This document shows, one piece after another, positions 1,754-30,633 of a stretch of 30,633 nucleotides of DNA. Location: IMG/VR virus record IMGVR_UViG_3300010348_000185; one strand, written 5' to 3'. The stretch is from a virus. The notes under the pieces are model-generated. The model was not told the origin of the DNA, ran no database searches, and saw nothing but the letters and a program-made list of their open reading frames with translations. Position 1 is the stretch's first letter. Every line of letters starts with the position of its first letter. Made by a program: the position numbers and the translations under genes.

Positions 1754-1887
1754 TCTGTTTTTTCTTTTTTTTCTATACTTGATGACTTCTCATCAAGATC
1801 TTTACTATATTTAACAACCTTATCATATAATTTATTAAGGTTTATAATATGCTTTTCTTTGATTTTATATTCACCTCTTTTATCCAT
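1750..1887 (-). CDS. Small hypothetical protein (45 aa, [45 protein letters not shown])
   Basis: Hand-translated ORF below the size cut-off of the ORF track. It fills the gap between two genes. Its ATG overlaps the upstream stop (ATGGATAA) and its TGA overlaps the fibre ATG (ATGA), the usual translational coupling. Confidence 0.4.
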
Positions 1888-3957: not shown

Positions 3958-3974
3958 TTTTGTTTATAAAATAA

Positions 3975-5602: not shown

Positions 5603-6823
5603 TTATTTATTTATTTTTTTTGTTATTCTTTCAATAGCAGATACTCTACTATCAACAGATACTTCTTTTGCCTTGAAGTTAATTGGTGATTGACCTTTAA
5701 CTTCTGCTTTTAATTTTGTAGATGCTGCTAAGTTTTTTAACTCAACGTTCTCCATTAAAACTGCTTCTTGTTGTGCTGTTAGTTTTTCAATTTCAGCAGT
5801 AAGAGTTTCAATCTTAGCTTTTAATGCTTCAACATCTACCTCTTCAACTGGTTTAAGAACTTCCTCAGCAATGTCTTCTGTTGCTATCATAACCTCAGCT
5901 ACAATTTCTGTTTCAACATCCTCCATAGTTACTTCTTCCGCAACGACTTCTTCTAATTCATCAGTAACCTCTTCTACTAAATCACTAACCTCTACAATTT
6001 TACCAACTTCATCAGTTTGGTATTGTTTATTGTCAGCAATAAACTCAGCATTCATAACTGGGTTTAACTCTGCGTCATAAACAACATTACCAACCTCAAA
6101 AGAGTCTGCTGTAAATGTTCCTAAATTAGTGTCTAATGATGCTAATGAAACCTCTCCCTCACTAATAAGTTTGATAAGTTTTTTTAATAAGCTCATATTG
6201 TTTCTATTATTTTCTCTGCTAGTATAACTCTCGAAGAAACTTCTTTGAGTATCTTCTTTTACTTCTTGTGTTAAGCAGTCTTCACAAGTTGTTTTTTTCA
6301 TATTTATCTTCTCAAATTCAACAAATGAATCAATTGAAAAACCTTTTGCTTTACCTGTTTCTACATACTCAGACCACAATTCATCTGATAACTTCATTCC
6401 AATAACCCAATCACCATTTTCAACTGGTAATCCAATCTCTGATGCCTTATCATTTTCTTTATTCATTACAATCCAGTTCTCAACTACTGTTGTTCCTTCT
6501 AACCAATTATTATGGTCGTGATTAAAAGTAGAGTTTCTTTGATAACCTTTTTTCATAAAGTCTTGTGAAAATCTCTCAATAGTTGGAGCATCAAACATTA
6601 ATTGAAAAGGTGTTCCATCCTCAAACTCTCTATAAATCTTTTGTTCTGGTCTTAAAACAATACCATACAAAATCTTTTTCTTTTCATCAGAAGATAATTT
6701 TATTACTTGCTTTTGTTTATTAAGAGCAATAAAATCAAAACCATTTGCTGGATCATCTACAATAGAGATACCATAAAGGTCTCCATCATTTTCTCCATCA
6801 TATTTAACTTTATAAAGATCCAT
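5603..6823 (-). CDS. Prohead protease (XkdF-like) fused to a scaffolding domain (406 aa)
   Basis: The N-terminal part 'DLYGISIVDDPANGFDFIAL...' resembles XkdF-type phage serine proteases. The C-terminal half is an acidic E/V-rich region followed by coiled coil (ALKAKIETLTAEIEKLTAQQEAVLMENVELK), typical of scaffolds. It lies immediately upstream of the capsid gene. Confidence 0.55.
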   Translation of the reverse strand: MDLYKVKYDGENDGDLYGISIVDDPANGFDFIALNKQKQVIKLSSDEKKKILYGIVLRPEQKIYREFEDGTPFQLMFDAPTIERFSQDFMKKGYQRNSTFNHDHNNWLEGTTVVENWIVMNKENDKASEIGLPVENGDWVIGMKLSDELWSEYVETGKAKGFSIDSFVEFEKINMKKTTCEDCLTQEVKEDTQRSFFESYTSRENNRNNMSLLKKLIKLISEGEVSLASLDTNLGTFTADSFEVGNVVYDAELNPVMNAEFIADNKQYQTDEVGKIVEVSDLVEEVTDELEEVVAEEVTMEDVETEIVAEVMIATEDIAEEVLKPVEEVDVEALKAKIETLTAEIEKLTAQQEAVLMENVELKNLAASTKLKAEVKGQSPINFKAKEVSVDSRVSAIERITKKINK

Positions 6824-9961: not shown

Positions 9962-9996
9962 AAATTAAAAACTATTTTTATTATCTCTGTTTACTA

Positions 9997-16660: not shown

Positions 16661-16724
16661 ACTTGTTTAGAGAAACTCAAACCTAAAAAAAAGAATACAG
16701 AGTATTATACCTAATGATACCTTT

Positions 16725-19115: not shown

Positions 19116-19409
19116 CTACTTATCACTACTTTCATCCTTACTCTCAAATGAAACTAATTTTGATATATCAACATCATTCACAGTTAATGTTGTTGTTTGA
19201 TTCACATTAGTTATAGGTTTCCCATAAATATATTGAAAGTATAATGTAATTGCTTTTGTATCACCTTGTTTAATCTTTTCTAATAATTTAGAAACAACTA
19301 AACCTCTGTCAATATATTCATCAAATAACTTAATGACATCTTGTTCTTCTGATCTTCTTGGACGACCAGCACCCGGCCTAGCACCACCCCAATTTTCTTT
19401 CTTTTCCAT
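19116..19409 (-). CDS. terS: Terminase small subunit candidate (97 aa)
   Basis: 'WGGARPGAGRPRR' is a basic N-terminal DNA-binding motif common in small terminases. The gene lies upstream of terL. Confidence 0.5.
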   Translation of the reverse strand: MEKKENWGGARPGAGRPRRSEEQDVIKLFDEYIDRGLVVSKLLEKIKQGDTKAITLYFQYIYGKPITNVNQTTTLTVNDVDISKLVSFESKDESSDK

Positions 19410-19885
19410 TATATTTTATGGTATATTTTTTTAGCATCTAAATATGCTTGTCTTGCTTCTTCTTCTGTTTTAAAGAAACCAAGGCTTATATTATTATTAT
19501 TATATCCTATCTGTGAATGAAACTTATTTCTATCCTTCCTATAACAATAACCTTTACTATTTTTTGTATTCCATTGATTTTGTTGGTTTGTAACCTTTCT
19601 TAAATTACATATTCTATTATCATCTTTAATACCATTTATATGGTCTATACAATCAACAATTTCTCCATATTTATAGTAGTAGGCAAATTGATGACCTAAT
19701 AAATTGATAATTTTACCTTTATTATATATATTAAGAAATATATAACCTTTTTTATGTCTTCTAGTAATTTCATTACCACTACTTCCGTATATCTTACCTG
19801 TTATACTATCATAAATATAACCTTTACTAATTGCTAATTTACATTTATCTTCTCTTGTCATCTTGAAACTATTTTGTTTATTCAA
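19409..19885 (-). CDS. HNH homing endonuclease with a C-terminal AP2-like DNA-binding domain (158 aa)
   Basis: 'HQFAYYY...DHINGIKDDNRICNLRKVTNQQNQWN' is an HNH_3-type motif. 'RKDRNKFHSQIGYNNNNISLGFFKTEEEARQAYLDAKKIY' is AP2-like. Confidence 0.85.
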   Translation of the reverse strand: MNKQNSFKMTREDKCKLAISKGYIYDSITGKIYGSSGNEITRRHKKGYIFLNIYNKGKIINLLGHQFAYYYKYGEIVDCIDHINGIKDDNRICNLRKVTNQQNQWNTKNSKGYCYRKDRNKFHSQIGYNNNNISLGFFKTEEEARQAYLDAKKIYHKI

Positions 19886-20295: not shown

Positions 20296-20469
20296 CTATT
20301 TATTTATTTTGTTTATCCAGTTCCATTTAACAACTCTTACTACAAAAGAATATAATAATGCTTCTCCATATCCTATTGGTGTGAATAATCTACTTAGTAA
20401 CATAATCACTAAAGGGTATATTACAAATATACCTATTAAAATAAGTAATAATTTAGTTTTTGAATTCAT
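20296..20469 (-). CDS. Small membrane protein (57 aa, MNSKTKLLLILIGIFVIYPLVIMLLSRLFTPIGYGEALLYSFVVRVVKWNWINKINK)
   Basis: Hand-translated ORF that fills the gap between genes and has a hydrophobic N-terminal helix. The plus-strand ORFs here are antisense artefacts. Confidence 0.4.
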   Translation of the reverse strand: MNSKTKLLLILIGIFVIYPLVIMLLSRLFTPIGYGEALLYSFVVRVVKWNWINKINK

Positions 20470-20938
20470 AATTGTTTTTTATTTTTTCTTTAATTTTATT
20501 AATTCTTAGGTTTATAGTCAAGTGATTTACTCCAATCTCTCTTGCTATTTTTCTTTGTGAGATACCAAATATAAAATGTAGTTGATATAACTTTTTCTCA
20601 AAGTGATTTAATTTGGATACAGTTTCAGATATACAATCTAATTTTTTTTGTTTGATTATATCTTCAATCATCATTTGAGTTAATTCTAAGTCTTCTAATG
20701 AATTATCCTCAAAGTTTGATACATCTACATTACTATCTATTTTATTTACTCTTATACGCTCTAAAAATAAGTTTCTTAATGAGATGAATACATAATTATC
20801 TGTTGCTTTTATATCAGGAACATCCTTAAATCTGATAATTAAGTCGTGTAGAAGATCTTGACTTTCTTTATTGTTGGTAATAATTTTTGAGAAGTTATAC
20901 CATTTTTTATAGTTTAGCTCTATATGATTATTAGACAT
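20453..20938 (-). CDS. ECF-like sigma-70 family sigma factor (161 aa)
   Basis: The region 2-like part is 'SQDLLHDLIIRFKD...NYVFISLRNLFLERIR'. The region 4 helix-turn-helix is 'LNHFEKKLYQLHFIFGISQRKIAREIGVNHLTINLRINKIKEKIK'. Confidence 0.7.
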   Translation of the reverse strand: MSNNHIELNYKKWYNFSKIITNNKESQDLLHDLIIRFKDVPDIKATDNYVFISLRNLFLERIRVNKIDSNVDVSNFEDNSLEDLELTQMMIEDIIKQKKLDCISETVSKLNHFEKKLYQLHFIFGISQRKIAREIGVNHLTINLRINKIKEKIKNNYEFKN

Positions 20939-21300
20939 TATATTGGTGATTTTTGATAGTATATTTGAGTAAATATACTTAGATTTTTACAGCTCTCAAA
21001 TAACTCATTATCAATTAGGTAAGTTTCTAATGATAAAAATAATGATGAGTAGTATGCTATAACTTTTAATGTTATATGTCTTGCTGTTATCTCACAGATA
21101 GAATCAAGTAATACTTCTATTCTTTTTACTATATTAAATATAGTTTTTTCTGATAGGAATTTAGGTGTTATGATTTTCATAAACTCATCATTTATATCCA
21201 TCATAGCAATCCAAACAAGGTAATGTGTTTGCGATGTAGTGTCAATAAAATTAGGTATATTACTTAATTTTTCTCTAATATAAGATATATGCTCTTTCAT
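20938..21300 (-). CDS. Hypothetical protein (120 aa)
   Basis: The ORF is coupled by TAATG to the sigma factor gene. No motif was recognised. Confidence 0.3.
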   Translation of the reverse strand: MKEHISYIREKLSNIPNFIDTTSQTHYLVWIAMMDINDEFMKIITPKFLSEKTIFNIVKRIEVLLDSICEITARHITLKVIAYYSSLFLSLETYLIDNELFESCKNLSIFTQIYYQKSPI

Positions 21301-21358
21301 TATATTTAATCTTTTACTATATATTGAAAAGTTTGTGCTCCCTATAAAAAAAAGATGA

Positions 21359-21413
21359 CTATTAGTAATCTAATTACTCGAAGAAGTTTCTTCGAGAGTT
21401 ATACTACTAATAG
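21359..21413. promoter_or_regulatory. Nested palindrome: outer arms ctattagta/tactaatag around the core hairpin ctcgaagaa-gt-ttcttcgag
   Basis: Read directly in a 252-bp ORF-free spacer. The 32-nt core 'tactcgaagaagtttcttcgagagttatacta' (21375-21406) recurs at 24871 and 25365. Confidence 0.6.
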
Positions 21414-21552
21414 CCACTTGAAATAAAGAAATTTATTGCTTTATTTATAGATTGTTTCTATATAAAAGTTTATAATTTATTTTATTTTTTATAATGGTTT
21501 CTTGTATTTCTTATAAATAATAATCCTGTTCCATCTATTAATAACTCTTTAC

Positions 21553-22935
21553 TCATATTTTCTTTTCTGTTTTTATATCTTCTATACTAATCTGTGCGTT
21601 AAGACCAGCAATAAAAAATTGCTCTATTATTTTCATCTGTGAGCGATCTAAATCTTCTTTCTTTATAATTATACTATCGTGTATGAAATGATACTTTATA
21701 TCCATTCTATCAAGCTCTGGTAGTATTCTCTCAACCCATAAAAAACTTTCTGTTCCTTGTAACAATAGAGGTAACATTTTATGCGCTCTTTTTATTTTAG
21801 CAATACTTTTAATGTCATTAAGGAACTTATATATTGTAGGATATATCATAGAGAAAATCTTCTTATATTCATTAGGTGATTTAGAAGGTGAATAAAGAAC
21901 TATGATGAAAATTTGCTTTGCTTCTAATCTTGTCATTTTCTCACCAGTTAAATTAAAAACCTCATTGGCAAAATGTCTATAAATATCATCATTCTCACAT
22001 AAGTTTTTCCACAAATCTAATTCTTTTTTTGATGGTAATTTTACAGTTTTCAATCCTTCTAAAAACCTTACACCGTCTGACTTCCCGAGTGTTTTTTCTA
22101 TAATTCTGTATTCATAAGAGAGATAAGAATTAGAATAAGAATTTACAGGGGACTTTTCACCTCTTAATTCTTTTAATAAATTAAAAAAGATATTTAACAT
22201 TGCTGGTTGAGAAGCAACTATATCCATAGAATAATCATAACCTAAAATAAACTTTTTATAATCACCATTTAGAATAGAAAGATTAGTAGTTATTCTTCCA
22301 TTAGAAGAAGACCTTGATATAAAAAGTTGTTTATCATTTATCTCTAATAATTTTCTTTGTAAAACCGCTTTTGTATATTTAGAAAGTATTCTACCTTTTT
22401 TATCAGGTATTTGATTTACATAACAATTAGTAAGATAGTTCCAAGCAGCAATAAAATCTATCTTAAAATCATTCTTAAAATTATTTTTATGTTTAGTTGA
22501 AACTTTTAGTTTAGTATCTGTTTCATTTATTGCTTTAATAGTTCTATTAAGATAAGTTTTATTCTCCATAGCAATAGAGGTTAAATCATCAACGAAATCT
22601 TCGTTAAGCTTATATGACATAGATTTTTCACCAGGAATATAAAAGTTATCTGTAATAACAACTTTTTCTTGTATTAGATAATCTAAATACAATGAATAAT
22701 CATTATGAAGTATATTATGAAAAGAATTGGTTTGTATTTGTACTAAATTGTTTCTATCTATATCTCTTGAACCCGCCATTCGTAATATAGTATCACATAT
22801 TACTATTAAACCTTCTTTGTCTAAAGAATAAATTTTTGATGATAAATCTTTGTTCCACTTGATATAGACGTGTAGTTTGTTGTCTATAAAGTTTTTAATC
22901 GATACAGGTATGTATCTGTTAAGTTTTTTTTTCAT
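21553..22935 (-). CDS. Miniature family-A-like nucleic acid polymerase (460 aa)
   Basis: Motifs by eye: 'NGRITTNLSIL' (compare TGRLSSxxPNLQNIP), 'YDYSMDIVASQPAML' (motif A) and 'DDIYRHFANEVFNLTGEKMTRLEAKQIFIIVLYS' (motif B, R..AK...F...Y). Also 'LLQGTESFLW' (compare QGTAADL) and 'HFIHDSIII' (motif C). Confidence 0.6.
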   Translation of the reverse strand: MKKKLNRYIPVSIKNFIDNKLHVYIKWNKDLSSKIYSLDKEGLIVICDTILRMAGSRDIDRNNLVQIQTNSFHNILHNDYSLYLDYLIQEKVVITDNFYIPGEKSMSYKLNEDFVDDLTSIAMENKTYLNRTIKAINETDTKLKVSTKHKNNFKNDFKIDFIAAWNYLTNCYVNQIPDKKGRILSKYTKAVLQRKLLEINDKQLFISRSSSNGRITTNLSILNGDYKKFILGYDYSMDIVASQPAMLNIFFNLLKELRGEKSPVNSYSNSYLSYEYRIIEKTLGKSDGVRFLEGLKTVKLPSKKELDLWKNLCENDDIYRHFANEVFNLTGEKMTRLEAKQIFIIVLYSPSKSPNEYKKIFSMIYPTIYKFLNDIKSIAKIKRAHKMLPLLLQGTESFLWVERILPELDRMDIKYHFIHDSIIIKKEDLDRSQMKIIEQFFIAGLNAQISIEDIKTEKKI

Positions 22936-22968
22936 ATTCGTCTTTTATTTTTTATGTCTTTTTATTTA

Positions 22969-23011
22969 CTTGGGAGACGAACCTGAGGGGATCAATCCTC
23001 AGGAACCCAAG
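22969..23011 (-). promoter_or_regulatory. GC-rich bipartite stem-loop in the 5' leader of the polymerase gene
   Basis: The outer stem is cttggg/cccaag, the inner stem cctgagg/cctcagg, and the loop ggatcaat. It lies 34-76 nt upstream of the ATG at 22935 and is a GC island in AT-rich DNA. Confidence 0.5.
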
Positions 23012-23129
23012 AAGAAGTTTAATAACTTACTTATAGTAGTGTTTATTTTAATAAACAACTCTTTAGTATATATTATATTTTCAAACTCCCTTTTGTTGTT
23101 TTTTTAATTTTTTTTAATTTTTTTTATAA

Positions 23130-23161
23130 AAAACCCTAACCAAATAATTGATTAGGGTTTT
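23130..23161 (-). terminator. Rho-independent terminator (potentially bidirectional)
   Basis: The stem is aaaaccctaa/ttagggtttt with a 12-nt loop. It has a U-run on the minus-strand transcript and T-rich flanks on both sides. Confidence 0.65.
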
Positions 23162-23182
23162 AAAAAATAAAGAAGAAAATTA

Positions 23183-23326
23183 TTATTGCTTAGATAAAAT
23201 CACATAAGTGATTAAACCTCCTATAATTGTAAGCCAAAAAAAGAATCTTACATTATTATTTATACTTCTTAAATACTGAGTTTGCTTCTCAAGCAATTGT
23301 CTGTCTGTTAATTTATTAAATTCCAT
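23183..23326 (-). CDS. Small C-terminally membrane-anchored protein (47 aa, MEFNKLTDRQLLEKQTQYLRSINNNVRFFFWLTIIGGLITYVILSKQ)
   Basis: Hand-translated ORF between 23361..23609 and the terminator. Confidence 0.35.
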   Translation of the reverse strand: MEFNKLTDRQLLEKQTQYLRSINNNVRFFFWLTIIGGLITYVILSKQ

Positions 23327-23360
23327 ATTGTATATATTAAAATGTTTGTTGTTCCTTTGT

Positions 23361-23609
23361 TTAATTTTTAATGTATAATTGTTTATTATATAAACCTAAT
23401 TTATTCTCATCAATTGCTTCTGTTAAAGTCAATTTTACCTGATTTGCTATCCAACTAAATGGTGAATTAATTATTTCATCTATAGTTAAATACCTAACCA
23501 CACCATCGGCAAATGTAAATCTATATTCTATAAGATTAGGATCTACCGAAGTTAATCTAGATATCCAAATGTTAATCTCTGGTTGCATAATCATAATTGT
23601 ATGTGCCAT
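23361..23609 (-). CDS. Hypothetical protein (82 aa)
   Basis: ORF with an ATG start, on the same strand as its neighbours. Confidence 0.3.
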   Translation of the reverse strand: MAHTIMIMQPEINIWISRLTSVDPNLIEYRFTFADGVVRYLTIDEIINSPFSWIANQVKLTLTEAIDENKLGLYNKQLYIKN

Positions 23610-23712
23610 ATTTTCTATTTTTTAATTATTACTCGATCATCGATAGTGCTTTCTAAACAAAGATAGTGTTTATATTTAATATAAACAACTTTTAGTACTA
23701 CTATTATTTCAA

Positions 23713-23937
23713 TTAATCTAATACTAACTCCAACTTTTTATTTCTAATATAAACAATATATAAAGCATACTCATATCTACTAACTTCATCATAACTAATT
23801 TTACCGTTACTATAATCTAACCACATAGCATTACAAGTAGTATCATTTTTACTATAAGTTAGAAAATCATTCCAATCATCATAACTTAACAGCTTTTGCC
23901 AATCATTTTTGTAACCTTTGACTTGCTCTATTTTCAT
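23713..23937 (-). CDS. Hypothetical protein (74 aa), first gene of the minus-strand arm
   Basis: The ORF lies 20 nt downstream of a Bacteroidota-type promoter. Confidence 0.35.
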   Translation of the reverse strand: MKIEQVKGYKNDWQKLLSYDDWNDFLTYSKNDTTCNAMWLDYSNGKISYDEVSRYEYALYIVYIRNKKLELVLD

Positions 23938-23956
23938 ATTTTTTAATTTAACTCTA

Positions 23957-23987
23957 CAAATTTACAATTATTTTATGATCTAGCAAA
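23957..23987 (-). promoter_or_regulatory. Bacteroidota sigma-A type promoter: -33 TTTG, 19-nt spacer, -7 TAAATTTG
   Basis: The minus strand reads TTTGctagatcataaaataattgTAAATTTG. This matches the TTTG-N19-21-TAnnTTTG consensus, and the ATG lies 20 nt downstream. Confidence 0.6.
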
Positions 23988-24090
23988 ATATTTGTAAAAA
24001 AATTAAAAAAAAATCAAAAAATAGCAAAAGGGACTGAACATATATTAATATATATAATATAATATATATAAAAAATAAGAAATAAAGAAT

Positions 24091-24240
24091 ATGACAACAA
24101 AAGAACAATTAAGAAAACTTCAAGATGAATGGGATAGATTATCACTTTATTCATCAAATCCAGAAAAGAAAATGGATAAAATAGAAAAGAAAATGGAAGT
24201 TTTAGAAAGACAATTAAAATTAGAGAGTTTAGGAATTTAA
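24091..24240 (+). CDS. Small hypothetical protein (49 aa, MTTKEQLRKLQDEWDRLSLYSSNPEKKMDKIEKKMEVLERQLKLESLGI), first gene of the plus-strand arm
   Basis: Hand-translated ORF. It is preceded by the leader 'ataaaaaataagaaataaagaatATG', which is shared with other plus-strand genes. Confidence 0.45.
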   Translation: MTTKEQLRKLQDEWDRLSLYSSNPEKKMDKIEKKMEVLERQLKLESLGI

Positions 24241-24251
24241 CCTAAACTCTC
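24223..24251 (+). promoter_or_regulatory. Perfect 11-bp stem-loop overlapping the stop codon of the first early ORF
   Basis: The stem is gagagtttagg/cctaaactctc with the 7-nt loop aatttaa. It is followed by an A-run, not a U-run, so it may be an attenuator or processing site rather than a classical terminator. Confidence 0.4.
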
Positions 24252-24270
24252 AAAAAAATAAATTATTAAT

Positions 24271-24423
24271 ATGAAAAACTCAAAATTAATAAACATTAGC
24301 ACAAAAACAATAGAAGAGTTAGATACTCTAAGAAATAAGTATAATTTATCATATGATAAAATTATCACATCTCTTATTATAGAATACTATAAAAACAAAA
24401 ATAATAATAACAAAGATGAATAA
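24271..24423 (+). CDS. Small ribbon-helix-helix-like DNA-binding protein candidate (50 aa)
   Basis: MKNSKLINISTKTIEELDTLRNKYNLSYDKIITSLIIEYYKNKNNNNKDE has a strand-helix-helix pattern like CopG/Arc family proteins. Confidence 0.35.
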   Translation: MKNSKLINISTKTIEELDTLRNKYNLSYDKIITSLIIEYYKNKNNNNKDE

Positions 24424-24574
24424 AGAAGTTTTAAGAGAGAAAATAATTGAAACCTCATATTACATTACACAAGCAGTAATGAAGTCTAATATAGAAGATA
24501 TAGAGCGTTTAAGAGCAGAGATGAATAACCTAATCGAGCTATATAAAAATGAACTAAACAATAATGGCTTGTAA
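24416..24574 (+). CDS. Small hypothetical protein (52 aa)
   Basis: Hand-translated: MNKEVLREKIIETSYYITQAVMKSNIEDIERLRAEMNNLIELYKNELNNNGL. It overlaps both neighbours in the usual coupled manner. Confidence 0.4.
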   Translation: MNKEVLREKIIETSYYITQAVMKSNIEDIERLRAEMNNLIELYKNELNNNGL

Positions 24575-24854
24575 CATATATAAATACTCTCAAAACGAGA
24601 GTGCCTCGCACTATACAGAATATGAAATGGAAAAATATAGCGAGTATATGACTTGGGTTGAGGATGAAGTAAATAAATCTGATCTACCAACTACTATTAA
24701 ACATAAAATGATGAGTAAAAGAAATCTTCATAAAAGAAAAAATGGTATGTGGTTTCTTGAAGAAGCCAGTTATGAATTTGAGTTTCTACCATTTAAGCAA
24801 TGGTTATTACAAACTGAAAGAGATGAAAAACTACAATCACTTTTAGGTGATTGA
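24564..24854 (+). CDS. Hypothetical early protein (96 aa) ending in ...RDEKLQSLLGD
   Basis: The last 12 codons lie inside the 95-bp perfect repeat. Confidence 0.4.
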   Translation: MACNIYKYSQNESASHYTEYEMEKYSEYMTWVEDEVNKSDLPTTIKHKMMSKRNLHKRKNGMWFLEEASYEFEFLPFKQWLLQTERDEKLQSLLGD

Positions 24855-24912
24855 TTTCTGTAAAACAGAATACTCGAAGAAGTTTCTTCGAGAGTTATAC
24901 TATCCCAATTGG
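24818..24912 (+). repeat. 95-bp perfect direct repeat, copy A (gene 3' end plus two hairpins)
   Basis: It is identical to 25312-25406. It contains 'RDEKLQSLLGD*', the hairpin ttctgt-aaa-acagaa, the hairpin ctcgaagaa-gt-ttcttcgag, and 'agttatactatcccaattgg'. Confidence 0.95.
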
Positions 24913-24963
24913 TACTACTCGATTAACGTGAGTGCGAAGCACTATAAAAAATAAATAAGAAAT

Positions 24964-25146
24964 ATGAAAAATAATATGAAAAAAATAATAGTAAATTTAA
25001 GATATGATATTAATTCAATAAATGAAAATGAAAAATTAGTAATTATTGAAGAATTAAAAAAAAACTTAAATAGTGATAATATAATGGTATTTTTTAACTC
25101 ATTAGAAAATAGAATATATACAATTGATATACCAAAATATGAATAA
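24964..25146 (+). CDS. Hypothetical early protein (60 aa)
   Basis: ORF with the conserved leader 'ctataaaaaataaataagaaatATG'. Confidence 0.35.
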   Translation: MKNNMKKIIVNLRYDINSINENEKLVIIEELKKNLNSDNIMVFFNSLENRIYTIDIPKYE

Positions 25147-25348
25147 ATTAAACCTATTTTATAATAATAATTTAATTGTAACTATTTATAGAAGTGATAT
25201 TCTTTGTAAAGGAAGCCTAATATCATTTGATGGTAATTTAGAATATATTGTAGTTAATGTAAATGAAAATGAAAATATATATGATGCTTTTTTAATGACT
25301 ATTCAAGAAGCAAGAGATGAAAAACTACAATCACTTTTAGGTGATTGA
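25139..25348 (+). CDS. Hypothetical early protein (69 aa from the ATG; the ORF track starts at a TTG at 25124) ending in ...RDEKLQSLLGD
   Basis: The ATG at 25139 overlaps the upstream stop (ATGAATAA). The last 12 codons lie inside the 95-bp repeat. Confidence 0.4.
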   Translation: MNKLNLFYNNNLIVTIYRSDILCKGSLISFDGNLEYIVVNVNENENIYDAFLMTIQEARDEKLQSLLGD

Positions 25349-25406
25349 TTTCTGTAAAACAGAATACTCGAAGAAGTTTCTTCGAGAGTTATACTATCCC
25401 AATTGG
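25312..25406 (+). repeat. 95-bp perfect direct repeat, copy B
   Basis: It is identical to 24818-24912. Confidence 0.95.
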
Positions 25407-25428
25407 GACTATAAAATAAAATAATAGA

Positions 25429-25671
25429 ATGAATATATTAACAAAAGAGTGTATTACACATTCAACTGATGTAAATGGAATAATTAAGATAGAAGGAATA
25501 ATTACAACACTTTTATTTAATTTCATAATTATAAAAAGAGAAAAGATTCGTTTAGACCTTTGTAAAAAAGACTTAGAGTTTATATGTTTTAGAGATGGTA
25601 TTTCTATAGAACAAGTAATTATAAATATGATAGAAGAACGTTTAGAAGGATTTAGATTTGTAGGTATGTAG
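25429..25671 (+). CDS. Hypothetical protein (80 aa) whose last residues run into a methyltransferase remnant
   Basis: The ORF ends ...EERLEGFRFVGM followed by TAG. Confidence 0.3.
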   Translation: MNILTKECITHSTDVNGIIKIEGIITTLLFNFIIIKREKIRLDLCKKDLEFICFRDGISIEQVIINMIEERLEGFRFVGM

Positions 25672-25752
25672 TTAGACGAAGATTACTTTAAAATTGCAGA
25701 AGCAAGAATAAACTCTTTTGAAGAGTATAGAAAATTACTTAAACAAAAATAA
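25648..25752 (+). pseudogene. C-terminal remnant of a DNA methyltransferase (GFRFVGM*LDEDYFKIAEARINSFEEYRKLLKQK)
   Basis: It matches the conserved methyltransferase ending 'GR.FIGIELD..Y...A..RI'; compare the intact neighbour's 'NRNFIGIELDQKFFNLAKERI'. The in-frame TAG sits where the conserved Glu (GAG) is expected. Confidence 0.6.
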
Positions 25753-25779
25753 ACAAACAGAAAAAGAAAAAGAAAAATA

Positions 25780-26598
25780 ATGAATATAAATTTGATAAAC
25801 GGAGATTGTTTAGAACTTATGAAATCTATACCAGATAAAAGTATAGATCTTATTTGTTGTGATTTACCATATGGGACGACAGATACACACGGTGGTAAAA
25901 AAAGCAAAAATAGATTTTTAGAATGGGATAATATAATACCACTTGATAAACTATGGATTGAGTATAAAAGAATTATTAAAGATAAAGGAGTTATTTGTTT
26001 GAATGCCGATCAACCATTTACCTCTAAATTGATAATTTCAAATTTAGAGTGGTTTAGATATGAATGGATATGGAAAAAAAATATAACAACTGGTTTTTTA
26101 CACGCTAATCATAGACCTATGAAACAAACCGAAGATATTGTTATTTTCTCACCTGCAGGAGCATCACCATCAGCGACAAAAGGCAATAATTCTATGACAT
26201 ATAATCCACAAGGATTAATAGAAAAGGTTGTTCAAAAAAAGAATAGTAAAAATAGATTAGGTAAATTTTTACTAAATGAGGAGTTTTTGGGTAAAAATAA
26301 TAAATTAATAAGTGGAAAAGAATATACTCAAAGATTCACAAATTATCCAAAAGAAATAATAGAATTTGATATGGATAAAGATACCATACATCCCACACAA
26401 AAACCAGTTTCTCTAATAGAATATTTAATAAAAACATATTCTAATGAAGGTGATACGATACTTGATAATTCTATGGGTTCTGGAACAACAGGTGTTGCTT
26501 GTGTAAGAACTAATAGAAATTTTATAGGAATTGAATTGGATCAAAAATTCTTTAATCTTGCTAAGGAAAGAATTAATAGAGAAAAAGATAAAGTATAA
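25780..26598 (+). CDS. DNA methyltransferase, beta-class N6-adenine/N4-cytosine family (272 aa)
   Basis: Motif IV is 'DLICCDLPYGT' (DPPY-like). 'HPTQKP' is present. Motif I is 'ILDNSMGSGTTGVAC'. The C-terminus is 'NFIGIELDQKFFNLAKERI'. Confidence 0.85.
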   Translation: MNINLINGDCLELMKSIPDKSIDLICCDLPYGTTDTHGGKKSKNRFLEWDNIIPLDKLWIEYKRIIKDKGVICLNADQPFTSKLIISNLEWFRYEWIWKKNITTGFLHANHRPMKQTEDIVIFSPAGASPSATKGNNSMTYNPQGLIEKVVQKKNSKNRLGKFLLNEEFLGKNNKLISGKEYTQRFTNYPKEIIEFDMDKDTIHPTQKPVSLIEYLIKTYSNEGDTILDNSMGSGTTGVACVRTNRNFIGIELDQKFFNLAKERINREKDKV

Positions 26599-26642
26599 AA
26601 ACTATTACTCGAAGATGTAAAATATAAAAATAAATAAAGAAT

Positions 26643-26825
26643 ATGAAACCATATATAATACCAAATTTTATTAATCATAGATATGAAATATATTTAGATG
26701 ATAAAGTAAGATATTTAGATTTTACAAAATCTTCTCAAATCGAAATTATTATGAATGAAATGATTAAGGATAGAAGAGATATACTAATAGATAAAATATT
26801 AATGATGTGTGAATTAAATAAATAA
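26643..26825 (+). CDS. Hypothetical early protein (60 aa)
   Basis: The ORF is preceded by TACTCGAAGA and the conserved leader. Confidence 0.35.
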   Translation: MKPYIIPNFINHRYEIYLDDKVRYLDFTKSSQIEIIMNEMIKDRRDILIDKILMMCELNK

Positions 26826-26836
26826 TAAATAATAAT

Positions 26837-27361
26837 ATGAGTGATATAAAACAAAAATATATAGTAACCAATAAGAATGGTAGTTACCAAGTGATGGTTT
26901 GGTTAAATGGAAAACATCATTATATAGGCATCTATAAAACAATAGAGGAAGCAATTATTGAAAGAGATAAGTTTATAAAAAAGTATAATGTAGTACCTAA
27001 ATATAATAATATATACTTTGATAATAAAGAAGCTTATAAAGAAATTATTATATCACAAGCACAAGGTAGATTAACACCTAAATTAATGTCTCAATTATTA
27101 AAAATAGTTAAAGGTGTTTCTAAAAAGTTTTACTATAAAGACCAAGATGATAGATTAGATTGTGAAGCTTATGCGGTTGAGATGATAATGAAAAACTGGT
27201 ATCACTTTGATGAAAATAAATATGATAATGTCCTTTCCTATTTTACTGAGATAGTAAAACGTGCTTTTGCTTTTCAATGGAAGCAATTACAAAAAAGCAG
27301 AATAAATACAATTAGTTTAGATTATACTAATGAAGATGGTGATAGAATAATTAATATATAA
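26837..27361 (+). CDS. T4 gp55-like late sigma factor with an N-terminal AP2-like domain (174 aa)
   Basis: 'SQLLKIVKGVSKKFYY...EAYAVEMIMKNWYHFDENKYDNVLSYFTEIVKRAFAFQWKQLQK' parallels T4 gp55. From memory, gp55 reads 'LIAEGLSKRFNF...[41 protein letters not shown]'. The N-terminal 'GSYQVMVWLNGKHHYIGIYKTIEEAIIERDKF' is AP2-like. Confidence 0.6.
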   Translation: MSDIKQKYIVTNKNGSYQVMVWLNGKHHYIGIYKTIEEAIIERDKFIKKYNVVPKYNNIYFDNKEAYKEIIISQAQGRLTPKLMSQLLKIVKGVSKKFYYKDQDDRLDCEAYAVEMIMKNWYHFDENKYDNVLSYFTEIVKRAFAFQWKQLQKSRINTISLDYTNEDGDRIINI

Positions 27362-27365
27362 TAAA

Positions 27366-27797
27366 ATGGGTAGAAAAAGAGAAATAACAAAAGAAGATAT
27401 AGAATCAGGTTATTTAACTTGTAAAAAATGTAATCAAAGAAGAAAACTTATATTTTTTTATAGTAAAAGATATAATTACAATGGACTAAACGAAGTTTCA
27501 TATCAAATCTCCAAATGTAAAGTATGTAAATCTAAAAATAATTCATATAAAGTAAAAAATATAGAAGTTTTAGATATATCAAAATTTAATCTAACAAAAG
27601 AAGCAAGATTATTTATAAAAAGATTAATTTTATTAAAAGGTAAAATAGGTGTTATAGATGCTTATAAATTAGTTCATTACCACTTAGAAACTTTTAATTA
27701 TATAGAAAGACAATTTGATAGTGTAGAGCAAGAATTATCAATAATGTATAAAGAATTATTAAAAGTTTATGATAAAGATCAGGAAACCAGATTATAA
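27366..27797 (+). CDS. Zinc-ribbon protein (143 aa), function unknown
   Basis: The cysteine pairs CKKC...CKVC are present. Confidence 0.35.
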   Translation: MGRKREITKEDIESGYLTCKKCNQRRKLIFFYSKRYNYNGLNEVSYQISKCKVCKSKNNSYKVKNIEVLDISKFNLTKEARLFIKRLILLKGKIGVIDAYKLVHYHLETFNYIERQFDSVEQELSIMYKELLKVYDKDQETRL

Positions 27798-28014
27798 CTT
27801 ATTAAGAGTACCCGAGTTAAATTTGTTTAAATGGACAAAAAATGGTATAATTATGACTTATGGGATAGGTTTTAATAAAAAAATTATCAATATTAGTGAT
27901 AATATATCAAAAGATAAAGATGGTTGTTTAGATTGGCTTTATTCACTTTTAGATAAAGATATACCTAAACAACAAAAAAGAGATATAAAAGAAGTTATTT
28001 CTGAGTTTCTATAA
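27769..28014 (+). CDS. Hypothetical protein (81 aa; the start is uncertain and an internal ATG at about 27853 is possible)
   Basis: The ORF overlaps the upstream gene by 29 nt. Confidence 0.3.
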   Translation: MIKIRKPDYNLLRVPELNLFKWTKNGIIMTYGIGFNKKIINISDNISKDKDGCLDWLYSLLDKDIPKQQKRDIKEVISEFL

Positions 28015-28039
28015 AAAATCCTTATATTATAAAAAGAGA

Positions 28040-28080
28040 AAAAGTTTATTTAATATATAGTAATAAACTTTTTTATTTTT
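28040..28080 (+). terminator. Rho-independent terminator immediately upstream of the nuclease-like gene
   Basis: The stem is a perfect 11 bp, aaaagtttatt/aataaactttt, with an 11-nt loop. It is followed by ttttattttt, and the ATG of the next gene is at 28081. Confidence 0.65.
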
Positions 28081-28659
28081 ATGAACTTAACAAACAACTT
28101 CCAAAGAGACGAATTTTATGCAAGACAGGGTCTTTTAATACTACAAGAACTTTACCCAAATACATTTAAGTATAAAATAGAATTCACACAAGGTGAATAC
28201 GACCCATATGATGCAATGTTTTTTATAATTGATACAAATACTCAAAGTATTATTAAACGTGTCTGGATCGAACTTAAAATAAGAAAAACAGCATATGATA
28301 CATATCTACTAGAAACCAAAAAGATGAATAGTTTATTAAAATTAAGAAAAGATATGTTTTTTACAGAAGATGAAGTAACTTTACTCTATATTAATTTCAC
28401 TCCAAATGAAACAATAATCTATAATTTAGATAAAGTCAAGAATCTACCAATAGAGAAAAAAGTAATGAATAAATGCACAGCTATATCAAGAACTAATAAG
28501 ATTGAAAAAAATGTAATAATGTTGAAGCCAGAAGATGGTAAAATATTAAATTATATTCTTAATGAAGAAAAAATTAATAATAGGAATAAAATAAACAATA
28601 TAGTAGATAATAAAGTTAAAGAATTAAAGAATGATTTGTTTAGAACTTTATTTGGATAA
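28081..28659 (+). CDS. PD-(D/E)xK-type nuclease candidate (192 aa)
   Basis: 'YDPYDAMFFII' followed about 19 residues later by 'VWIELKIRK' fits the D...ExK arrangement. Confidence 0.4.
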   Translation: MNLTNNFQRDEFYARQGLLILQELYPNTFKYKIEFTQGEYDPYDAMFFIIDTNTQSIIKRVWIELKIRKTAYDTYLLETKKMNSLLKLRKDMFFTEDEVTLLYINFTPNETIIYNLDKVKNLPIEKKVMNKCTAISRTNKIEKNVIMLKPEDGKILNYILNEEKINNRNKINNIVDNKVKELKNDLFRTLFG

Positions 28660-29262: not shown

Positions 29263-29368
29263 ATTTATCTTTTCTTTTTTTCTTTCGAGTATACTTTTTC
29301 TTATTCTTGTGTATATTCGACCTCGATGCTTGCCACCTCTCTTGTAGAGTAAATTCTATTTTTTTCAA

Positions 29369-29638: not shown

Positions 29639-30076
29639 TTATATTCTTACCCAAGCACCATTCTGTCTCCCATAAATAAATCCATCATTAGGTGCATCAT
29701 CAATCTTATTATCTATATCATTTTGTTGAGCAGAAATAGCATCATTAACATTAGCTATGCTATTATTTAATTGTGTTGAAGAAGCTTTACCATTTAATGA
29801 TAATGTTAAATTATCAACATTTGTTTCTAGAGAATTTATATCACTCTGATTAGTATTTAACCTACCATTAATAAAATCTATTTGATCTTGTAAATCAGCT
29901 TCTATATTATCAACATATGTTTTTGTAGCATAGTTTGATAGTGTTGCTGTTATATAAGTAGCATCTACTATTGTTCCAATAGAAGAAAAATTATCATTAA
30001 CTATGATAAAAGCATCTCTTAATTTATCTCCTAAACCATCATTAGGATTACTTACATTTATATTACTAAAAGTCAT
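29639..30076 (-). CDS. Short paralogue of the tail fibre N-terminal module (145 aa)
   Basis: '[22 protein letters not shown]' compares with the fibre's '[22 protein letters not shown]'. An N/Q-rich coiled coil follows. The protein ends 'DDAPNDGFIYGRQNGAWVRI', compared with the fibre's '[20 protein letters not shown]'. Confidence 0.6.
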   Translation of the reverse strand: MTFSNINVSNPNDGLGDKLRDAFIIVNDNFSSIGTIVDATYITATLSNYATKTYVDNIEADLQDQIDFINGRLNTNQSDINSLETNVDNLTLSLNGKASSTQLNNSIANVNDAISAQQNDIDNKIDDAPNDGFIYGRQNGAWVRI

Positions 30077-30122: not shown

Positions 30123-30545
30123 TTATATCATAATTTTATTAGCTTGTATAAAAATATCATTAACCTGTAAATCAGTCAATCCTAAAGATGATTGAATAAA
30201 AAGCACAGTCGGACTATTTCTATCTATCGCTGTTCCATATTCCCATATATACTTAGCAGCAGTTCTATTAGGCTCTTGTAATAATTCTAATGCATTTTCT
30301 ATAGCAGTTTCTAAATTCATTATTCTTAAAACAACTCTTAATCTCCATAATGGTATTTCAATAGGACAATTATGTCTTATTTCTTCTTCTTCAGTAAATA
30401 AATTACTTGGTTCTACAGTACCTCCAGCTGTTAAAAACTGAACATAGTCTTGATAAAGTGATGAGCCTTCGTCCATCGGAATTAAAGTGATAGTATCGTT
30501 ATCACATTTAATTATATTTCCATATTTTGATGTTTTATATTGCAT
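30123..30545 (-). CDS. Hypothetical protein (140 aa), possibly a fibre-associated accessory or chaperone by position
   Basis: It lies immediately downstream of the fibre gene on the circular map. Its first 13 codons are also present at 1-39 because of the terminal repeat. Confidence 0.25.
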   Translation of the reverse strand: MQYKTSKYGNIIKCDNDTITLIPMDEGSSLYQDYVQFLTAGGTVEPSNLFTEEEEIRHNCPIEIPLWRLRVVLRIMNLETAIENALELLQEPNRTAAKYIWEYGTAIDRNSPTVLFIQSSLGLTDLQVNDIFIQANKIMI

Positions 30546-30633
30546 ATCTTATATTTTAATTATTTGTCATTATATAACTTCCATACCAATCAAATCCTGT
30601 TGTTGCATTTGGACCTGTTGTATCTACAATGTA
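30507..30633. repeat. Terminal direct repeat, right copy, identical to 1-127.
   Basis: Same comparison as for 1-127. The length of 127 bp fits a k-mer overlap left by an assembler on a circular contig. Confidence 0.95.

What the first reader, a model, noticed from the sequence alone, without database searches (positions are those of the whole stretch)
24818..25406. 95-bp perfect direct repeat with two hairpins brackets a two-gene cassette; its core recurs in a third locus
24818-24912 and 25312-25406 are identical over 95 bp, while the flanking sequence is unrelated. Each copy covers the last 12 codons of a different small ORF (...RDEKLQSLLGD*). Each also carries the hairpin ttctgt-aaa-acagaa, the hairpin ctcgaagaa-gt-ttcttcgag, and 'agttatactatcccaattgg'. 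The 32-nt core 'tactcgaagaagtttcttcgagagttatacta' appears a third time at 21375-21406 in the other arm, embedded in a larger palindrome (21359-21413). The architecture resembles the promoter-stem-loop (PeSL) elements that flank mobile gene cassettes in the hyperplastic regions of T4-type phages. It could mediate cassette gain and loss by recombination between copies, which would delete ORFs 24964..25146 and 25139..25348. It could also act as a terminator/promoter unit or as a protein or RNA operator. Perfect identity across coding and non-coding DNA implies recent gene conversion or strong selection on the nucleic acid itself.
Basis: seen in the sequence. Interest (0 to 1): 0.65.

Follow-up and report, generated by a model that had tools for sequence, protein, structure and literature searches.

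The report
Tiny hairpin insertion elements in a phage
The 95-base repeat is real, but it is not a promoter unit: it is a conserved gene junction present twice, each copy carrying the same 69-base hairpin insert, whose 28-base core belongs to a family of very small, probably mobile elements that land at TA sites, even inside genes, in this wastewater phage.

Summary
24818-24917 and 25312-25411 match at 99 of 100 bases. The 32-nt core has four copies, not three. The fourth (6220-6251, minus strand) lies inside the protease-scaffold gene.

Related contigs supply a clean empty site for every copy:
- The protease copy is a 30-nt in-frame insertion.
- The 21375 copy is a 30-nt insertion in the loop of an ordinary intrinsic terminator. 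Filled and empty alleles coexist in single metagenomes.
- Each copy in the 95-nt repeat is a 69-nt, three-hairpin insertion in a conserved junction (...ERDEKL|SQLGL*, leader, ORF80).

Every filled site reads TA-[element]-TA where the empty site has one TA.

A sister element (E2, 27 nt) shares the ends TACTC...GAGAGT...ACTA. It shows the same presence/absence pattern, including in-frame copies in two unrelated proteins. Stems covary across the family.

No promoter motif, Rfam family or transposase was found, and the core is absent from IMG/VR, JGI metagenome contigs and GTDB genomes.

Best reading: 22-37 bp non-autonomous hairpin insertion elements, closest to REPs, MITEs, Rickettsia palindromic elements and yeast mitochondrial GC clusters. 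The junction, not the element, is the older cassette-shuffling substrate. The PeSL reading is only partly supported.

The parts
24818..24917 (+). Repeat copy 1. It holds the native 3' end of ORF96 (AGAGATGAAAAACTA), the 69-nt insert, and TCCCAATTGGTACTA.
   Evidence: 99/100 identity to copy 2; the ORF96 family ends ...QTERD(E/K)KL..L
25312..25411 (+). Repeat copy 2. It is the same junction, grafted onto the end of ORF69 and followed by the ORF80 leader.
24834..24902 (+). 69-nt three-hairpin insertion (37-nt X, TA, 28-nt E1, TA), copy C. It supplies the new C-terminus QSLLGD* and the stop codon.
   Evidence: Absent from empty sites in L017, L020/L021 and L013; fold
25328..25396 (+). The same 69-nt insertion, copy D.
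   Evidence: L018 has it with one change in a loop
24871..24902 (+). E1 core, copy C: TA + CTCGAAGAAGTTTCTTCGAGAGTTATAC + TA.
25365..25396 (+). E1 core, copy D.
21375..21406 (+). E1 core, copy B. It is a 30-nt insertion in the loop of the terminator that lies between the 460-aa gene and the 120-aa gene.
   Evidence: Empty in L025, filled with a variant tail in L024; empty and filled alleles coexist in runs X2 and X5
6220..6251 (-). E1 core, copy A. It is a 30-nt in-frame insertion (10 codons, ...DTQRSFFESY...) in the linker of the protease-scaffold gene, 25 nt upstream of a conserved internal Met. One G>A change breaks the stem.
21346..21417 (-). Pre-existing intrinsic terminator, read on the minus strand: outer stem 21357-21374 with 21407-21417, T-run 21346-21353. 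It now carries E1 at its tip.
   Evidence: plain form in L025
24585..24613 (+). E2 copy inside ORF96, in frame (YSQNESASH). It is a 27-nt indel relative to homologs that lack it.
24916..24944 (+). E2 copy directly 3' of repeat copy 1. It is absent from repeat copy 2 and from L017. L013 has a homologous copy.
23630..23655 (+). Degenerate E2-like 24-nt insertion (TA + 22 nt + TA) in the leader of the 82-aa early gene.
   Evidence: Clean gap against L029
24964..25348 (+). The bracketed block, ORF60 (24964-25146) and ORF69 (25139-25348). ORF69 is a truncated form of a 91-aa ORF seen in L018.
24564..24854 (+). ORF96, the early gene whose 3' end is the source of the coding part of the repeat.
25429..25671 (+). 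ORF80. It is always preceded by the conserved junction, with or without the insert.
1776..1807 (+). Candidate diverged family member (TA-CTTGATGA-CTTC-TCATCAAG-ATCTTTAC-TA) inside a 45-aa ORF. It is unconfirmed because no empty site was found.
   Evidence: (family D5)

Best explanation
The window is a complete phage genome of about 30.5 kb from wastewater or activated sludge. It is 28% G+C and is distantly related to Nonlabens (Flavobacteriia) phages.

The 32-nt core is a 28-bp hairpin insertion element (E1) plus a duplicated TA. It belongs to a family of 22-37 bp elements with conserved ends: TA|CTC-stem-loop-stem-GAG-AGT...AC|TA. The second type is E2. These elements encode nothing, are richer in G+C and CpG than the genome, and have been inserted at TA dinucleotides at unrelated places. 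Those places are the linker of the protease-scaffold gene, the loop of a terminator, the 3' end and the 5' part of early gene ORF96, and a 5' leader.

The 95-nt repeat exists because a conserved gene junction is present twice. That junction is the last codons of the ORF96 family plus the leader of the next gene. Both copies carry the same 69-nt composite insert (a double hairpin X followed by E1). The ORF60/ORF69 block between them arrived by recombination in this junction, which is the old cassette-exchange substrate. The two identical repeats can now recombine and delete the block.

Shown here: the insertions, their exact ends, the TA duplication, the population polymorphism and the structural conservation of the hairpin.

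Inferred: the elements are, or recently were, mobile. They would be moved in trans by an enzyme that recognises the hairpin and its conserved foot, either a host HUH/RAYT-like or IS630-like enzyme or a phage nuclease. Their effects on expression would be side effects.
For: Filled versus empty sites, each with a single TA at the empty site:
- Site A: L001 and L002, with 74% aa identity in the protease, lack exactly 30 nt.
- Site B: L025 has the plain terminator. L024 is filled, with tail AGTATTAC. In run X2 the empty allele has depth 41.8 and a filled allele with 3 substitutions has depth 22.9.
- Sites C and D: L017, L020 and L021 have ...AAAAACTA|TCCCAATTGGGACTATAA... uninterrupted. L018 and both window copies carry the 69-nt insert.
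- E2 in ORF96: a 27-nt indel, L013 versus L017.
- E2 after copy C: absent from copy D and from L017.
- The 24-nt E2-like insert at 23630: absent from L029.

Six of six targets end in TA, where the genomic TA frequency is 0.122. That gives about 3e-6 by chance.

Coding copies:
- All are in frame (30 and 27 nt).
- E2 gives YSQNESASH in ORF96 and YSINESAEH in an unrelated 86-aa protein of L016.

Family alignment A3:
- Invariant TACT...A...CTA and near-invariant GAG-GT.
- 93% of cells are paired. Five pairs show compensatory changes, reached by 1 of 500 shuffles. Slid controls give 28-46% paired.

E2-like copies with a different first stem occur in other, larger phage contigs L026-L028.

Copy A has lost its hairpin (z = -0.6). 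A passenger in coding sequence is expected to decay like this.

Negative results that fit this reading:
- No promoter motif in the element.
- No Rfam family.
- No transposase or RNA polymerase in the phage.
- A separate conserved motif already sits upstream of the late gene blocks (families D8, D13, D18).
Against: - No act of transposition was observed, and no mobilising enzyme was identified.
- The elements have no terminal inverted repeats, so they do not fit any known transposase's substrate.
- Copy number is small (four E1 and three E2 in this genome). The exact E1 was found only in this phage lineage. IMG/VR, JGI contigs and GTDB genomes gave only this phage itself or chance hits.
- A 2-bp TA 'duplication' cannot be told apart from insertion 3' of TA by an element that itself ends in TA.
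- The X part of the 69-nt insert was never seen alone, so its nested origin is conjecture.
- Every copy lies 25-76 nt upstream of a start codon in the direction of transcription. The protease copy lies just before the conserved internal Met. A selected role in RNA processing or translation is therefore not excluded.
- The covariation set is small and hand-assembled, and it includes one unconfirmed member.
Confidence: 0.65

Rival explanations
1. PeSL-like regulatory cassette. The repeat would be a terminator/promoter (or terminator only) unit that insulates early genes. It would spread with gene cassettes by recombination and be kept by selection for expression control.
For: - The hairpins lie between early genes in a hyperplastic region and flank a variable two-gene block.
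- The first hairpin on the plus strand, and E1 read on the minus strand, score as weak terminator-like sites. Nine such sites were found where 0.1 were expected, though most are the same few hairpins counted in both repeat copies and on both strands.
- At site B the insert strengthens an existing terminator stem, from -6.1 to -14.5 kcal/mol with DNA parameters.
Against: - No sigma-70-like or Bacteroidetes-type promoter lies in the element.
- There is no U-tract after E1 in the sense direction at sites C and D.
- In the empty relative L017, ORF96 and ORF80 are 15 nt apart and evidently co-transcribed, so no unit is needed there.
- One copy is in frame inside the protease-scaffold gene, upstream of the essential scaffold part. 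E2 copies lie inside ORFs.
- Recombination does not explain precise 28-nt + TA insertions at unrelated sites.
Confidence: 0.13
2. Binding site or RNA-processing site under selection. The 9-2-9 palindrome would be an operator for a dimeric phage regulator, or an RNase III-type processing hairpin. It would be placed upstream of selected start codons, including the internal scaffold start.
For: - It is a perfect 20-bp palindrome with four copies, and none is expected by chance.
- Each copy lies 25-76 nt upstream of a start codon in the sense of transcription.
- Copy A lies just before the conserved internal Met of the scaffold part.
- Stems are conserved while loops vary.
Against: - Copy A carries an uncompensated stem mismatch and no longer folds.
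- Strains at 90-95% identity lack sites B, C and D yet keep the same flanking genes.
- The conserved asymmetric tail and the TA ends have no role in a symmetric operator.
- In a genome this compact, almost any intergenic point is within 100 nt of a start codon.
Confidence: 0.12
3. Plain recent tandem duplication of a 494-bp segment, with the other core copies arising by chance or by local gene conversion.
For: The two copies are identical over 95 nt and lie 494 nt apart.
Against: - The sequence between and around the copies is not duplicated.
- The second copy's context (ORF91/69 - junction - insert - ORF80) exists independently in L018 without ORF96.
- The core occurs at two distant loci as exact 30-nt insertions.
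- Chance expectation for the core is 0.
Confidence: 0.03

Closest known systems
REP (repetitive extragenic palindromic) elements and their RAYT (TnpA-REP) transposases in bacteria
   Same: Same size class (20-40 bp). Both are an imperfect palindrome with a short conserved tag at its foot, here TACTC...GAGAGT. Stems are conserved while loops vary. Both are non-coding and occur as several subfamilies in one genome (PMC3733652).
   Different: The tag is not GTAG or CGTC. The elements are in a phage, not a bacterial chromosome, and only a handful of copies exist. Some copies are inside ORFs. No RAYT gene is in the phage. The core is absent from 185,579 representative bacterial and archaeal genomes.
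MITEs with TA target duplication (IS630/Tc1-mariner derivatives, e.g. Correia elements of Neisseria; viral MITEs)
   Same: Non-autonomous elements in multiple copies, with presence/absence polymorphism and a 2-bp TA at both ends of filled sites.
   Different: Prokaryotic MITEs are 50-800 bp with terminal inverted repeats of at least 10-15 bp (PMC11602168). These elements are 22-37 bp with no terminal inverted repeat; the hairpin is internal and offset. That survey found MITEs in only about 0.01% of viral sequences.
Yeast mitochondrial GC clusters (e.g. GC42) and fungal mitochondrial double-hairpin elements
   Same: Short (18-42 nt) hairpin elements that are G+C-rich relative to a very A+T-rich genome. 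They are flanked by 2-3 nt direct repeats (AG, ACT), show rapid presence/absence turnover, keep stems more conserved than loops, and merge with neighbours into composites, as X+E1 and E2+E1 do here (PMC4478555).
   Different: They occur in organelles, not viruses, and the sequences are unrelated. Their mechanism is likewise unknown, so the analogy is descriptive only.
Rickettsia palindromic elements (RPE)
   Same: Palindromic selfish DNA inserted in frame in protein-coding genes, adding a peptide segment at permissive sites. The same peptide appears in unrelated proteins. This comparison rests on my own knowledge of Ogata et al. 2000. Here the cases are E1 in the protease linker and E2 in ORF96 and the L016 86-aa protein.
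   Different: RPEs are about 100-150 bp and occur in a bacterial genome. No sequence similarity was tested or is expected.
PeSL (promoter-early stem-loop) motifs of T4-type phages
   Same: Short conserved hairpin-containing repeats at the borders of variable ORFs in hyperplastic regions of a phage genome. Recombination between copies could add or delete the ORFs (PMC2839356, PMC4122927).
   Different: PeSLs are defined by a near-consensus early promoter next to the stem-loop and are intergenic regulatory units. Here no promoter is present. Copies also lie in coding sequence and in a terminator loop, and each copy is a discrete TA-flanked insertion.

Membership tests
PeSL (T4-type promoter-early stem-loop) | Early promoter (-35, N17, -10 near consensus) adjoining the stem-loop | tested here: not met
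   16 sigma-70-like sites in 24000-25800 against 15 +/- 4.2 in shuffles. None lies within E1 or X, and the nearest (25403-25430) lies in the junction that is also present at empty sites; the only match to the Bacteroidetes TTTG...TAnnTTTG pattern in the whole window lies elsewhere (23957-23987), so none is in the element.
PeSL (T4-type promoter-early stem-loop) | Intergenic position flanking variable ORFs in hyperplastic regions | tested here: inconclusive
   Met for copies C and D. Not met for copy A, which is inside the protease-scaffold ORF, or for copy B, which is inside a terminator hairpin.
MITE | Terminal inverted repeats of at least 10-15 bp | tested here: not met
   The ends of E1 are CTCGAAG... 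and ...GTTATAC. The ends of E2 are CTCG... and ...GCAC. They are not complementary. The inverted repeat is internal.
MITE | Target-site duplication flanking the element | tested here: met
   TA on both sides at six independent filled sites, and a single TA at each empty site. About 3e-6 by chance.
MITE | Length 50-800 bp in prokaryotes | tested here: not met
   22-28 bp for E1 and E2, 37 bp for X, and 67 bp for the composite, all without the TA. Size range taken from PMC11602168.
MITE | Cognate autonomous element or transposase available in trans | not testable with these tools
   There is no transposase in the phage. The host is unknown, and the core is absent from GTDB representative genomes.
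REP / REPtron | 20-40 bp imperfect palindrome with a conserved tetranucleotide tag (GTAG or CGTC) | tested here: not met
   The size and the palindrome requirement are met. The tag is TACTC with a 3' AGT...ACTA, not GTAG or CGTC.
REP / REPtron | Associated RAYT (Y1 HUH) gene in the same genome | tested here: not met
   No such gene appears among the window's ORFs in PHROGs or Pfam scans. A host copy cannot be excluded.
IS200/IS605-type palindrome-associated elements | Subterminal hairpins, insertion 3' of a fixed short target, no duplication | tested here: inconclusive
   The sequence data fit equally well with insertion 3' of TA by an element that ends in TA. The target beyond TA is not conserved. 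No TnpA was found.
Rickettsia-type palindromic elements in coding sequence | In-frame, stop-free insertion in protein genes, with the same peptide in unrelated proteins | tested here: met
   E1 adds 10 codons to the protease-scaffold protein. E2 adds 9 codons to ORF96. A similar peptide is found in the L016 86-aa protein.
Intrinsic (rho-independent) terminator | G+C-rich hairpin followed directly by a U-run on the transcribed strand | tested here: not met
   E1 is followed by AGTTATACTA in its own orientation. Only the pre-existing outer hairpin at site B has the T8 run, and it has this without E1 in L025.
Any described RNA family (Rfam 15) | Match at or near the gathering score | tested here: not met
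   the only hit in 20500-26500 is a chance-level CRISPR-DR13 match (E = 0.79) to a different hairpin at 24213-24242.

The most novel reading that the evidence does not exclude
A previously unrecognised class of ultra-small (22-37 bp) hairpin transposable elements is active in phages of Bacteroidetes. The elements would be recognised by their hairpin plus conserved foot (TACTC...GAGAGT...ACTA). They would insert at TA, tolerate or exploit in-frame insertion into essential genes, and fuse into composite units. Those composites would then serve as portable homology for gene-cassette gain and loss. They would be the smallest mobile DNA known in any virus, and they would point to an unidentified structure-specific enzyme that mobilises them, encoded either by the host or by one of the phage's free-standing HNH/NUMOD3 nucleases.
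Probability: 0.45. Interest if true: 0.8.

Novelty: new variant of a known kind. Interest (0 to 1): 0.62.

Why it matters
Transposable elements are rare in phage genomes. The survey I read found MITEs in about 0.01% of viral sequences (PMC11602168), and the smallest recognised prokaryotic MITEs are about 50 bp.

This 30-kb phage carries seven or more hairpin insertions of 22-37 bp. They have exact ends and a TA at both ends, both alleles coexist in nature, and some copies sit inside an essential structural gene. If they are mobile, three things follow:
- They extend the lower size limit of mobile DNA in viruses.
- They give a concrete, testable case for how hairpin elements of the REP or GC-cluster type move, which is still unresolved for those families.
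- They show how identical non-coding units come to flank variable genes in phage 'hyperplastic' regions without being promoters.

There is also a practical point. Such elements create in-frame indels and short perfect repeats. These break short-read assemblies, as several related contigs end in them, and they can be mistaken for regulatory motifs.

Tried and rejected
- Exact 32-nt core in IMG/VR: no hit.
- 20-nt palindrome in IMG/VR: one hit, in a 61% G+C phage coding region, judged chance.
- 20-nt palindrome in JGI metagenome contigs: this phage itself (L007) plus unrelated matches. Two are ordinary terminators and the others lie in unrelated contigs of much higher G+C.
- 19-nt arm plus tail in GTDB genomes: one hit, with no complementary arm, that looks like coding sequence of a Bacteroidales MAG. 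Judged chance.
- GenBank phages by blastn: only methyltransferase similarity.
- Relatives of the 460-aa protein in IMG/VR: none.
- Run search with the 69-nt insert alone: too few sampled words, and only X1 was returned.
- Laying Logan contigs: these cannot link across a 95-nt repeat, so the deletion product could neither be shown nor excluded.
- One cluster look-up was wasted on wrong minus-strand coordinates.
- The phage-sigma promoter idea was dropped. A different conserved 33-nt motif sits upstream of the late gene blocks (D8/D13/D18), and E1 is absent from those positions.
- The N4-type hairpin-promoter idea was dropped because no phage RNA polymerase is encoded.
- The CRISPR-repeat hit in Rfam is chance level and lies on another hairpin.
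- A homing 'protective insertion' next to HNH genes was considered. The same 28 nt at three unrelated targets does not fit site-specific homing.
- Possible remnants (TACTCGAAGA at 26604-26613, and a similar TACTCGAAAGA on the minus strand at 29281-29291) and the candidate at 1776-1807 were not resolved.
Full report
**1. The observation**

The window is a circularly assembled phage genome of about 30.5 kb. Bases 1-127 equal 30507-30633. G+C is 23-35%.
- The late and structural genes lie on the minus strand, from 50 to about 23,900. They include portal, protease-scaffold, large terminase, an ECF-like sigma factor and a collagen-like fibre.
- A block of small early genes and a methyltransferase lies on the plus strand, from 24,091 to 28,659.
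- The closest cultured relatives are Nonlabens phages P12024S/L, matched only at protein level. Public runs that hold the sequence are wastewater or activated-sludge metagenomes.

The reported repeat is real. 24818-24917 and 25312-25411 match at 99 of 100 positions, and the first 95 are identical. Both named hairpins are there, and both copies end a small ORF with RDEKLQSLLGD*. The 32-nt core is also at 21375-21406.

Shuffled sequence gives no match to the 20-nt palindrome. A third hairpin in the repeat, CAATCAC-TTTTAG-GTGATTG, spans the stop codon. The whole 69-nt stretch folds as three hairpins with z = -6.4.

**2. Each copy is a discrete insertion**

*Site A.* The copy at 6220 lies inside the 406-aa protease-scaffold ORF. 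Two IMG/VR relatives, L001 and L002, share 74% aa identity with it. They lack exactly ten codons there. The DNA alignment gives ...AAATA|GCAGAG in the relatives and ...AGATA[CTCAAAG...GTTATACTA]GCAGAG in the window.

*Site B.* Homologs in the 90%-identity clusters of the flanking proteins led to two contigs.
- L025 has GGTGGCTATTAGTA|ATTAGATTATTAATAGTCATC-T7. This is a plain intrinsic terminator upstream of the 120-aa gene.
- The window has the same terminator with 30 nt inserted in its loop.
- L024 has the insert with a slightly different tail.
- In runs X2, X4 and X5 a contig reads straight through the empty site (...AATCTAATTACTAATAGCCAC...). A second contig in X2 and X5 carries a filled site with three substitutions. 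Depths in X2 are 41.8 and 22.9, so both alleles coexist in one community.

*Sites C and D.* Homologs of ORF96 all end ...QTERD(E/K)KL..L. The coding part of the repeat is therefore native to ORF96.
- L017 shows the ancestral arrangement...GAAAGAGATAAAAAACTA|TCCCAATTGGGACTATAA, a 15-nt leader, then ORF80.
- L020 and L021 show the same junction behind a 25-codon mini-ORF in a differently organised genome.
- Both window copies, and L018, carry 69 extra bases after CTA.
- In L018 the upstream gene is a 91-aa ORF. The window's ORF69 is a truncated form of it, and no ORF96 lies next to it on that 3-kb contig.

The junction is thus an older, conserved boundary. Different genes have been exchanged at it: ORF80, ORF104 in L013, and methylases in L015 and L029. 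The hairpin insert is a later addition to that junction.

**3. A family of elements with common ends**

Comparing relatives exposed a second element, E2: TA-CTCG-N5-CGAG-AGTGC-N3-GCAC-TA.
- It is a 27-nt in-frame indel in the 5' part of ORF96. It is present in the window, L017 and L029, and absent from L013 and five other homologs.
- It follows repeat copy 1 but not copy 2.
- In L013 it sits next to an inverted E1 at a contig end.
- It lies in frame in an unrelated 86-aa protein of L016. The peptide there is YSINESAEH, against YSQNESASH in ORF96.
- A degenerate 24-nt version sits at 23630-23655 and is cleanly absent from L029.
- Versions with a different first stem (CTCAC-ATA-GTGAG, CTCAGCA-CCT-TGCTGAG) occur in L024 and in larger phage contigs L026-L028.

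Aligned together, E1 and E2 share TACTC at the 5' end, GAGAGT after the first hairpin and ACTA at the 3' end.
- On that alignment 93% of cells pair.
- Five pairs show changes on both sides, which 1 of 500 shuffles reaches.
- Slid controls give 28-46% paired.
- This set is small and hand-assembled, so I treat it as supporting evidence only.

At all six filled/empty comparisons the empty site has one TA and the filled site has TA on both sides. With a TA frequency of 0.122 that is about 3e-6 by chance.

The elements are compositional outliers. CG is the rarest dinucleotide in the genome (0.6%), and 11 of the 27 TCGA sites lie in them.

**4. What it is and how it works**

The simplest account is a family of very small non-autonomous insertion elements. 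They land at TA and survive where they do little harm. Such places are linkers and ends of proteins (always as multiples of three and without stops), loops of existing hairpins, and leaders.

The 69-nt unit looks like two such elements nested at a TA (X, then E1). X was never seen alone, so this is inference.

The perfect 95-nt identity follows from the same insert lying in two copies of an already conserved junction. I cannot tell which of these produced it:
- two junctions that already carried the insert were brought together by recombination between co-infecting genomes (an L018-like one and an ORF96-bearing one);
- the insert was copied from one junction to the other.

The repeat can now mediate loss of ORF60/ORF69. 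I could not test this, because Logan contigs collapse the repeat. All three contigs that encode the exact ORF96 protein have the full arrangement.

The enzyme is unknown. The phage encodes no transposase, recombinase or RNA polymerase. It does encode three free-standing nucleases of the HNH/NUMOD3 type. The conserved foot plus a structurally conserved hairpin points to a structure-specific enzyme of the kind that acts on REPs or IS200/IS605 ends. That is a resemblance, not a result.

**5. Rivals**

*PeSL-like promoter/terminator unit.*
- It fails the defining promoter test.
- It does not explain copies in coding sequence.
- In L017 the two genes are 15 nt apart without the unit.

*Operator or RNA-processing site.* This is not excluded.
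- Every copy is 25-76 nt upstream of a start codon, and copy A precedes the conserved internal Met of the scaffold part.
- Against it, copy A has an uncompensated stem mismatch and no longer folds.
- Closely related strains lack sites B, C and D.

*Simple duplication.* The independent L018 context and the distant 30-nt insertions contradict it.

**6. Comparison with known systems**

In size and build the elements are most like bacterial REPs (PMC3733652), but without their tags or a RAYT gene.

In behaviour they are most like yeast mitochondrial GC clusters. Those are short, relatively G+C-rich hairpins in A+T-rich DNA. They have 2-3 nt flanking repeats and rapid turnover, and they merge with neighbours (PMC4478555).

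In their in-frame invasion of genes they resemble Rickettsia palindromic elements (my own knowledge).

They share the TA duplication with IS630-type MITEs, but they lack terminal inverted repeats and are below the 50-bp lower size of prokaryotic MITEs (PMC11602168).

I found no description of such elements in phages in the searches I ran. That is a limited search, not proof of novelty.

**7. Verdict**

- The PeSL interpretation is partly supported: the cassette context and the recombination potential hold, the regulatory unit does not.
- The better explanation is a family of miniature TA-flanked hairpin insertion elements, with confidence about 0.65.
- I rate it a new variant of a known kind, with moderate to high interest.

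Noticed in passing
window, whole genome: The tetranucleotide CATG is completely absent (0 sites against about 75 expected). CGCG is also absent, and ACGT, GTAC and CTAG are 4-5 fold depleted. CG is the rarest dinucleotide (0.6%). This looks like restriction-site avoidance.
   Followed up: partly
window 19409-19885: The HNH_3 + AP2 endonuclease gene next to the terminase genes is precisely absent (a 450-nt skip) in the variants of this phage in runs X2, X4 and X5. That is the pattern of a free-standing homing endonuclease polymorphism.
   Followed up: partly
window 25672-25752; L007/L011 1528-2402: Directly after the ORF80 stop lies a remnant of a methyltransferase C-terminus (LDEDYFKIAEARI...), followed by an intact N6/N4 methylase at 25780-26598. 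A contig that is 100% identical up to 25676 continues instead with a different methylase gene that appears to be split by an HNH_3 ORF. 25676 is therefore a mosaic breakpoint.
   Followed up: partly
window 3934-3966, 6823-6855, 9961-9993, 16637-16669 (read on the minus strand): A conserved 33-nt motif (TAAACA...ATAGTTTTTA on the coding strand) sits upstream of four late gene blocks. It may be the late promoter, possibly for the phage sigma factor at 20453-20938. It is unrelated to the hairpin elements (families D8/D13/D18/D19).
   Followed up: no
window 23087-23124 and 23996-24033: A 38-nt A/T-rich inverted repeat (89% complementary) brackets the three small minus-strand genes at the divergent early region. 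L013 has a similar pair (4496-4555 / 4879-4938). These could be duplicated divergent promoter or origin sequences.
   Followed up: no
window 24223-24251: An 11-bp-stem hairpin (GAGAGTTTAGG-AATTTAA-CCTAAACTCTC) spans the stop of the 49-aa first early ORF and is also present in L017. That ORF ends ...KLESLGI*, which resembles the ORF96-family end ...KLEELGI*. This hints at an older copy of the same junction.
   Followed up: no
window 5603-6823: The protease gene has a protease domain (aa ~36-197) fused to an acidic, coiled C-terminal part that begins at a conserved internal Met (aa 210). This looks like a nested scaffold gene. A NUMOD3 homing-endonuclease-like gene (6860-7429) lies directly upstream.
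   Followed up: partly
window 1776-1807; 26604-26613; 29281-29291 (minus strand): A 32-nt sequence with the family's ends but a different stem (TA-CTTGATGA-CTTC-TCATCAAG-ATCTTTAC-TA) lies inside a 45-aa ORF. Two short stretches, TACTCGAAGA at 26604 and TACTCGAAAGA on the minus strand at 29291, resemble the 5' end of E1. They may be diverged or truncated copies.
   Followed up: partly
window 50-1753: The 567-aa fibre gene carries long collagen-like Gly-X-Y repeat arrays with an 18-nt period. Its N-terminal region is paralogous to the 145-aa ORF at 29639-30076: 1659-1723 matches 29979-30043 at 85%.
   Followed up: no
L022, L023 (ENA and Logan contigs): The 460-aa protein (21553-22935) is more than 90% identical to a protein in phages with a quite different, single-strand gene order. 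The module has therefore moved between genome types. A 448-aa ORF in L020 that may be its counterpart has a weak BT4734-like_N (PF08800) hit.
   Followed up: no
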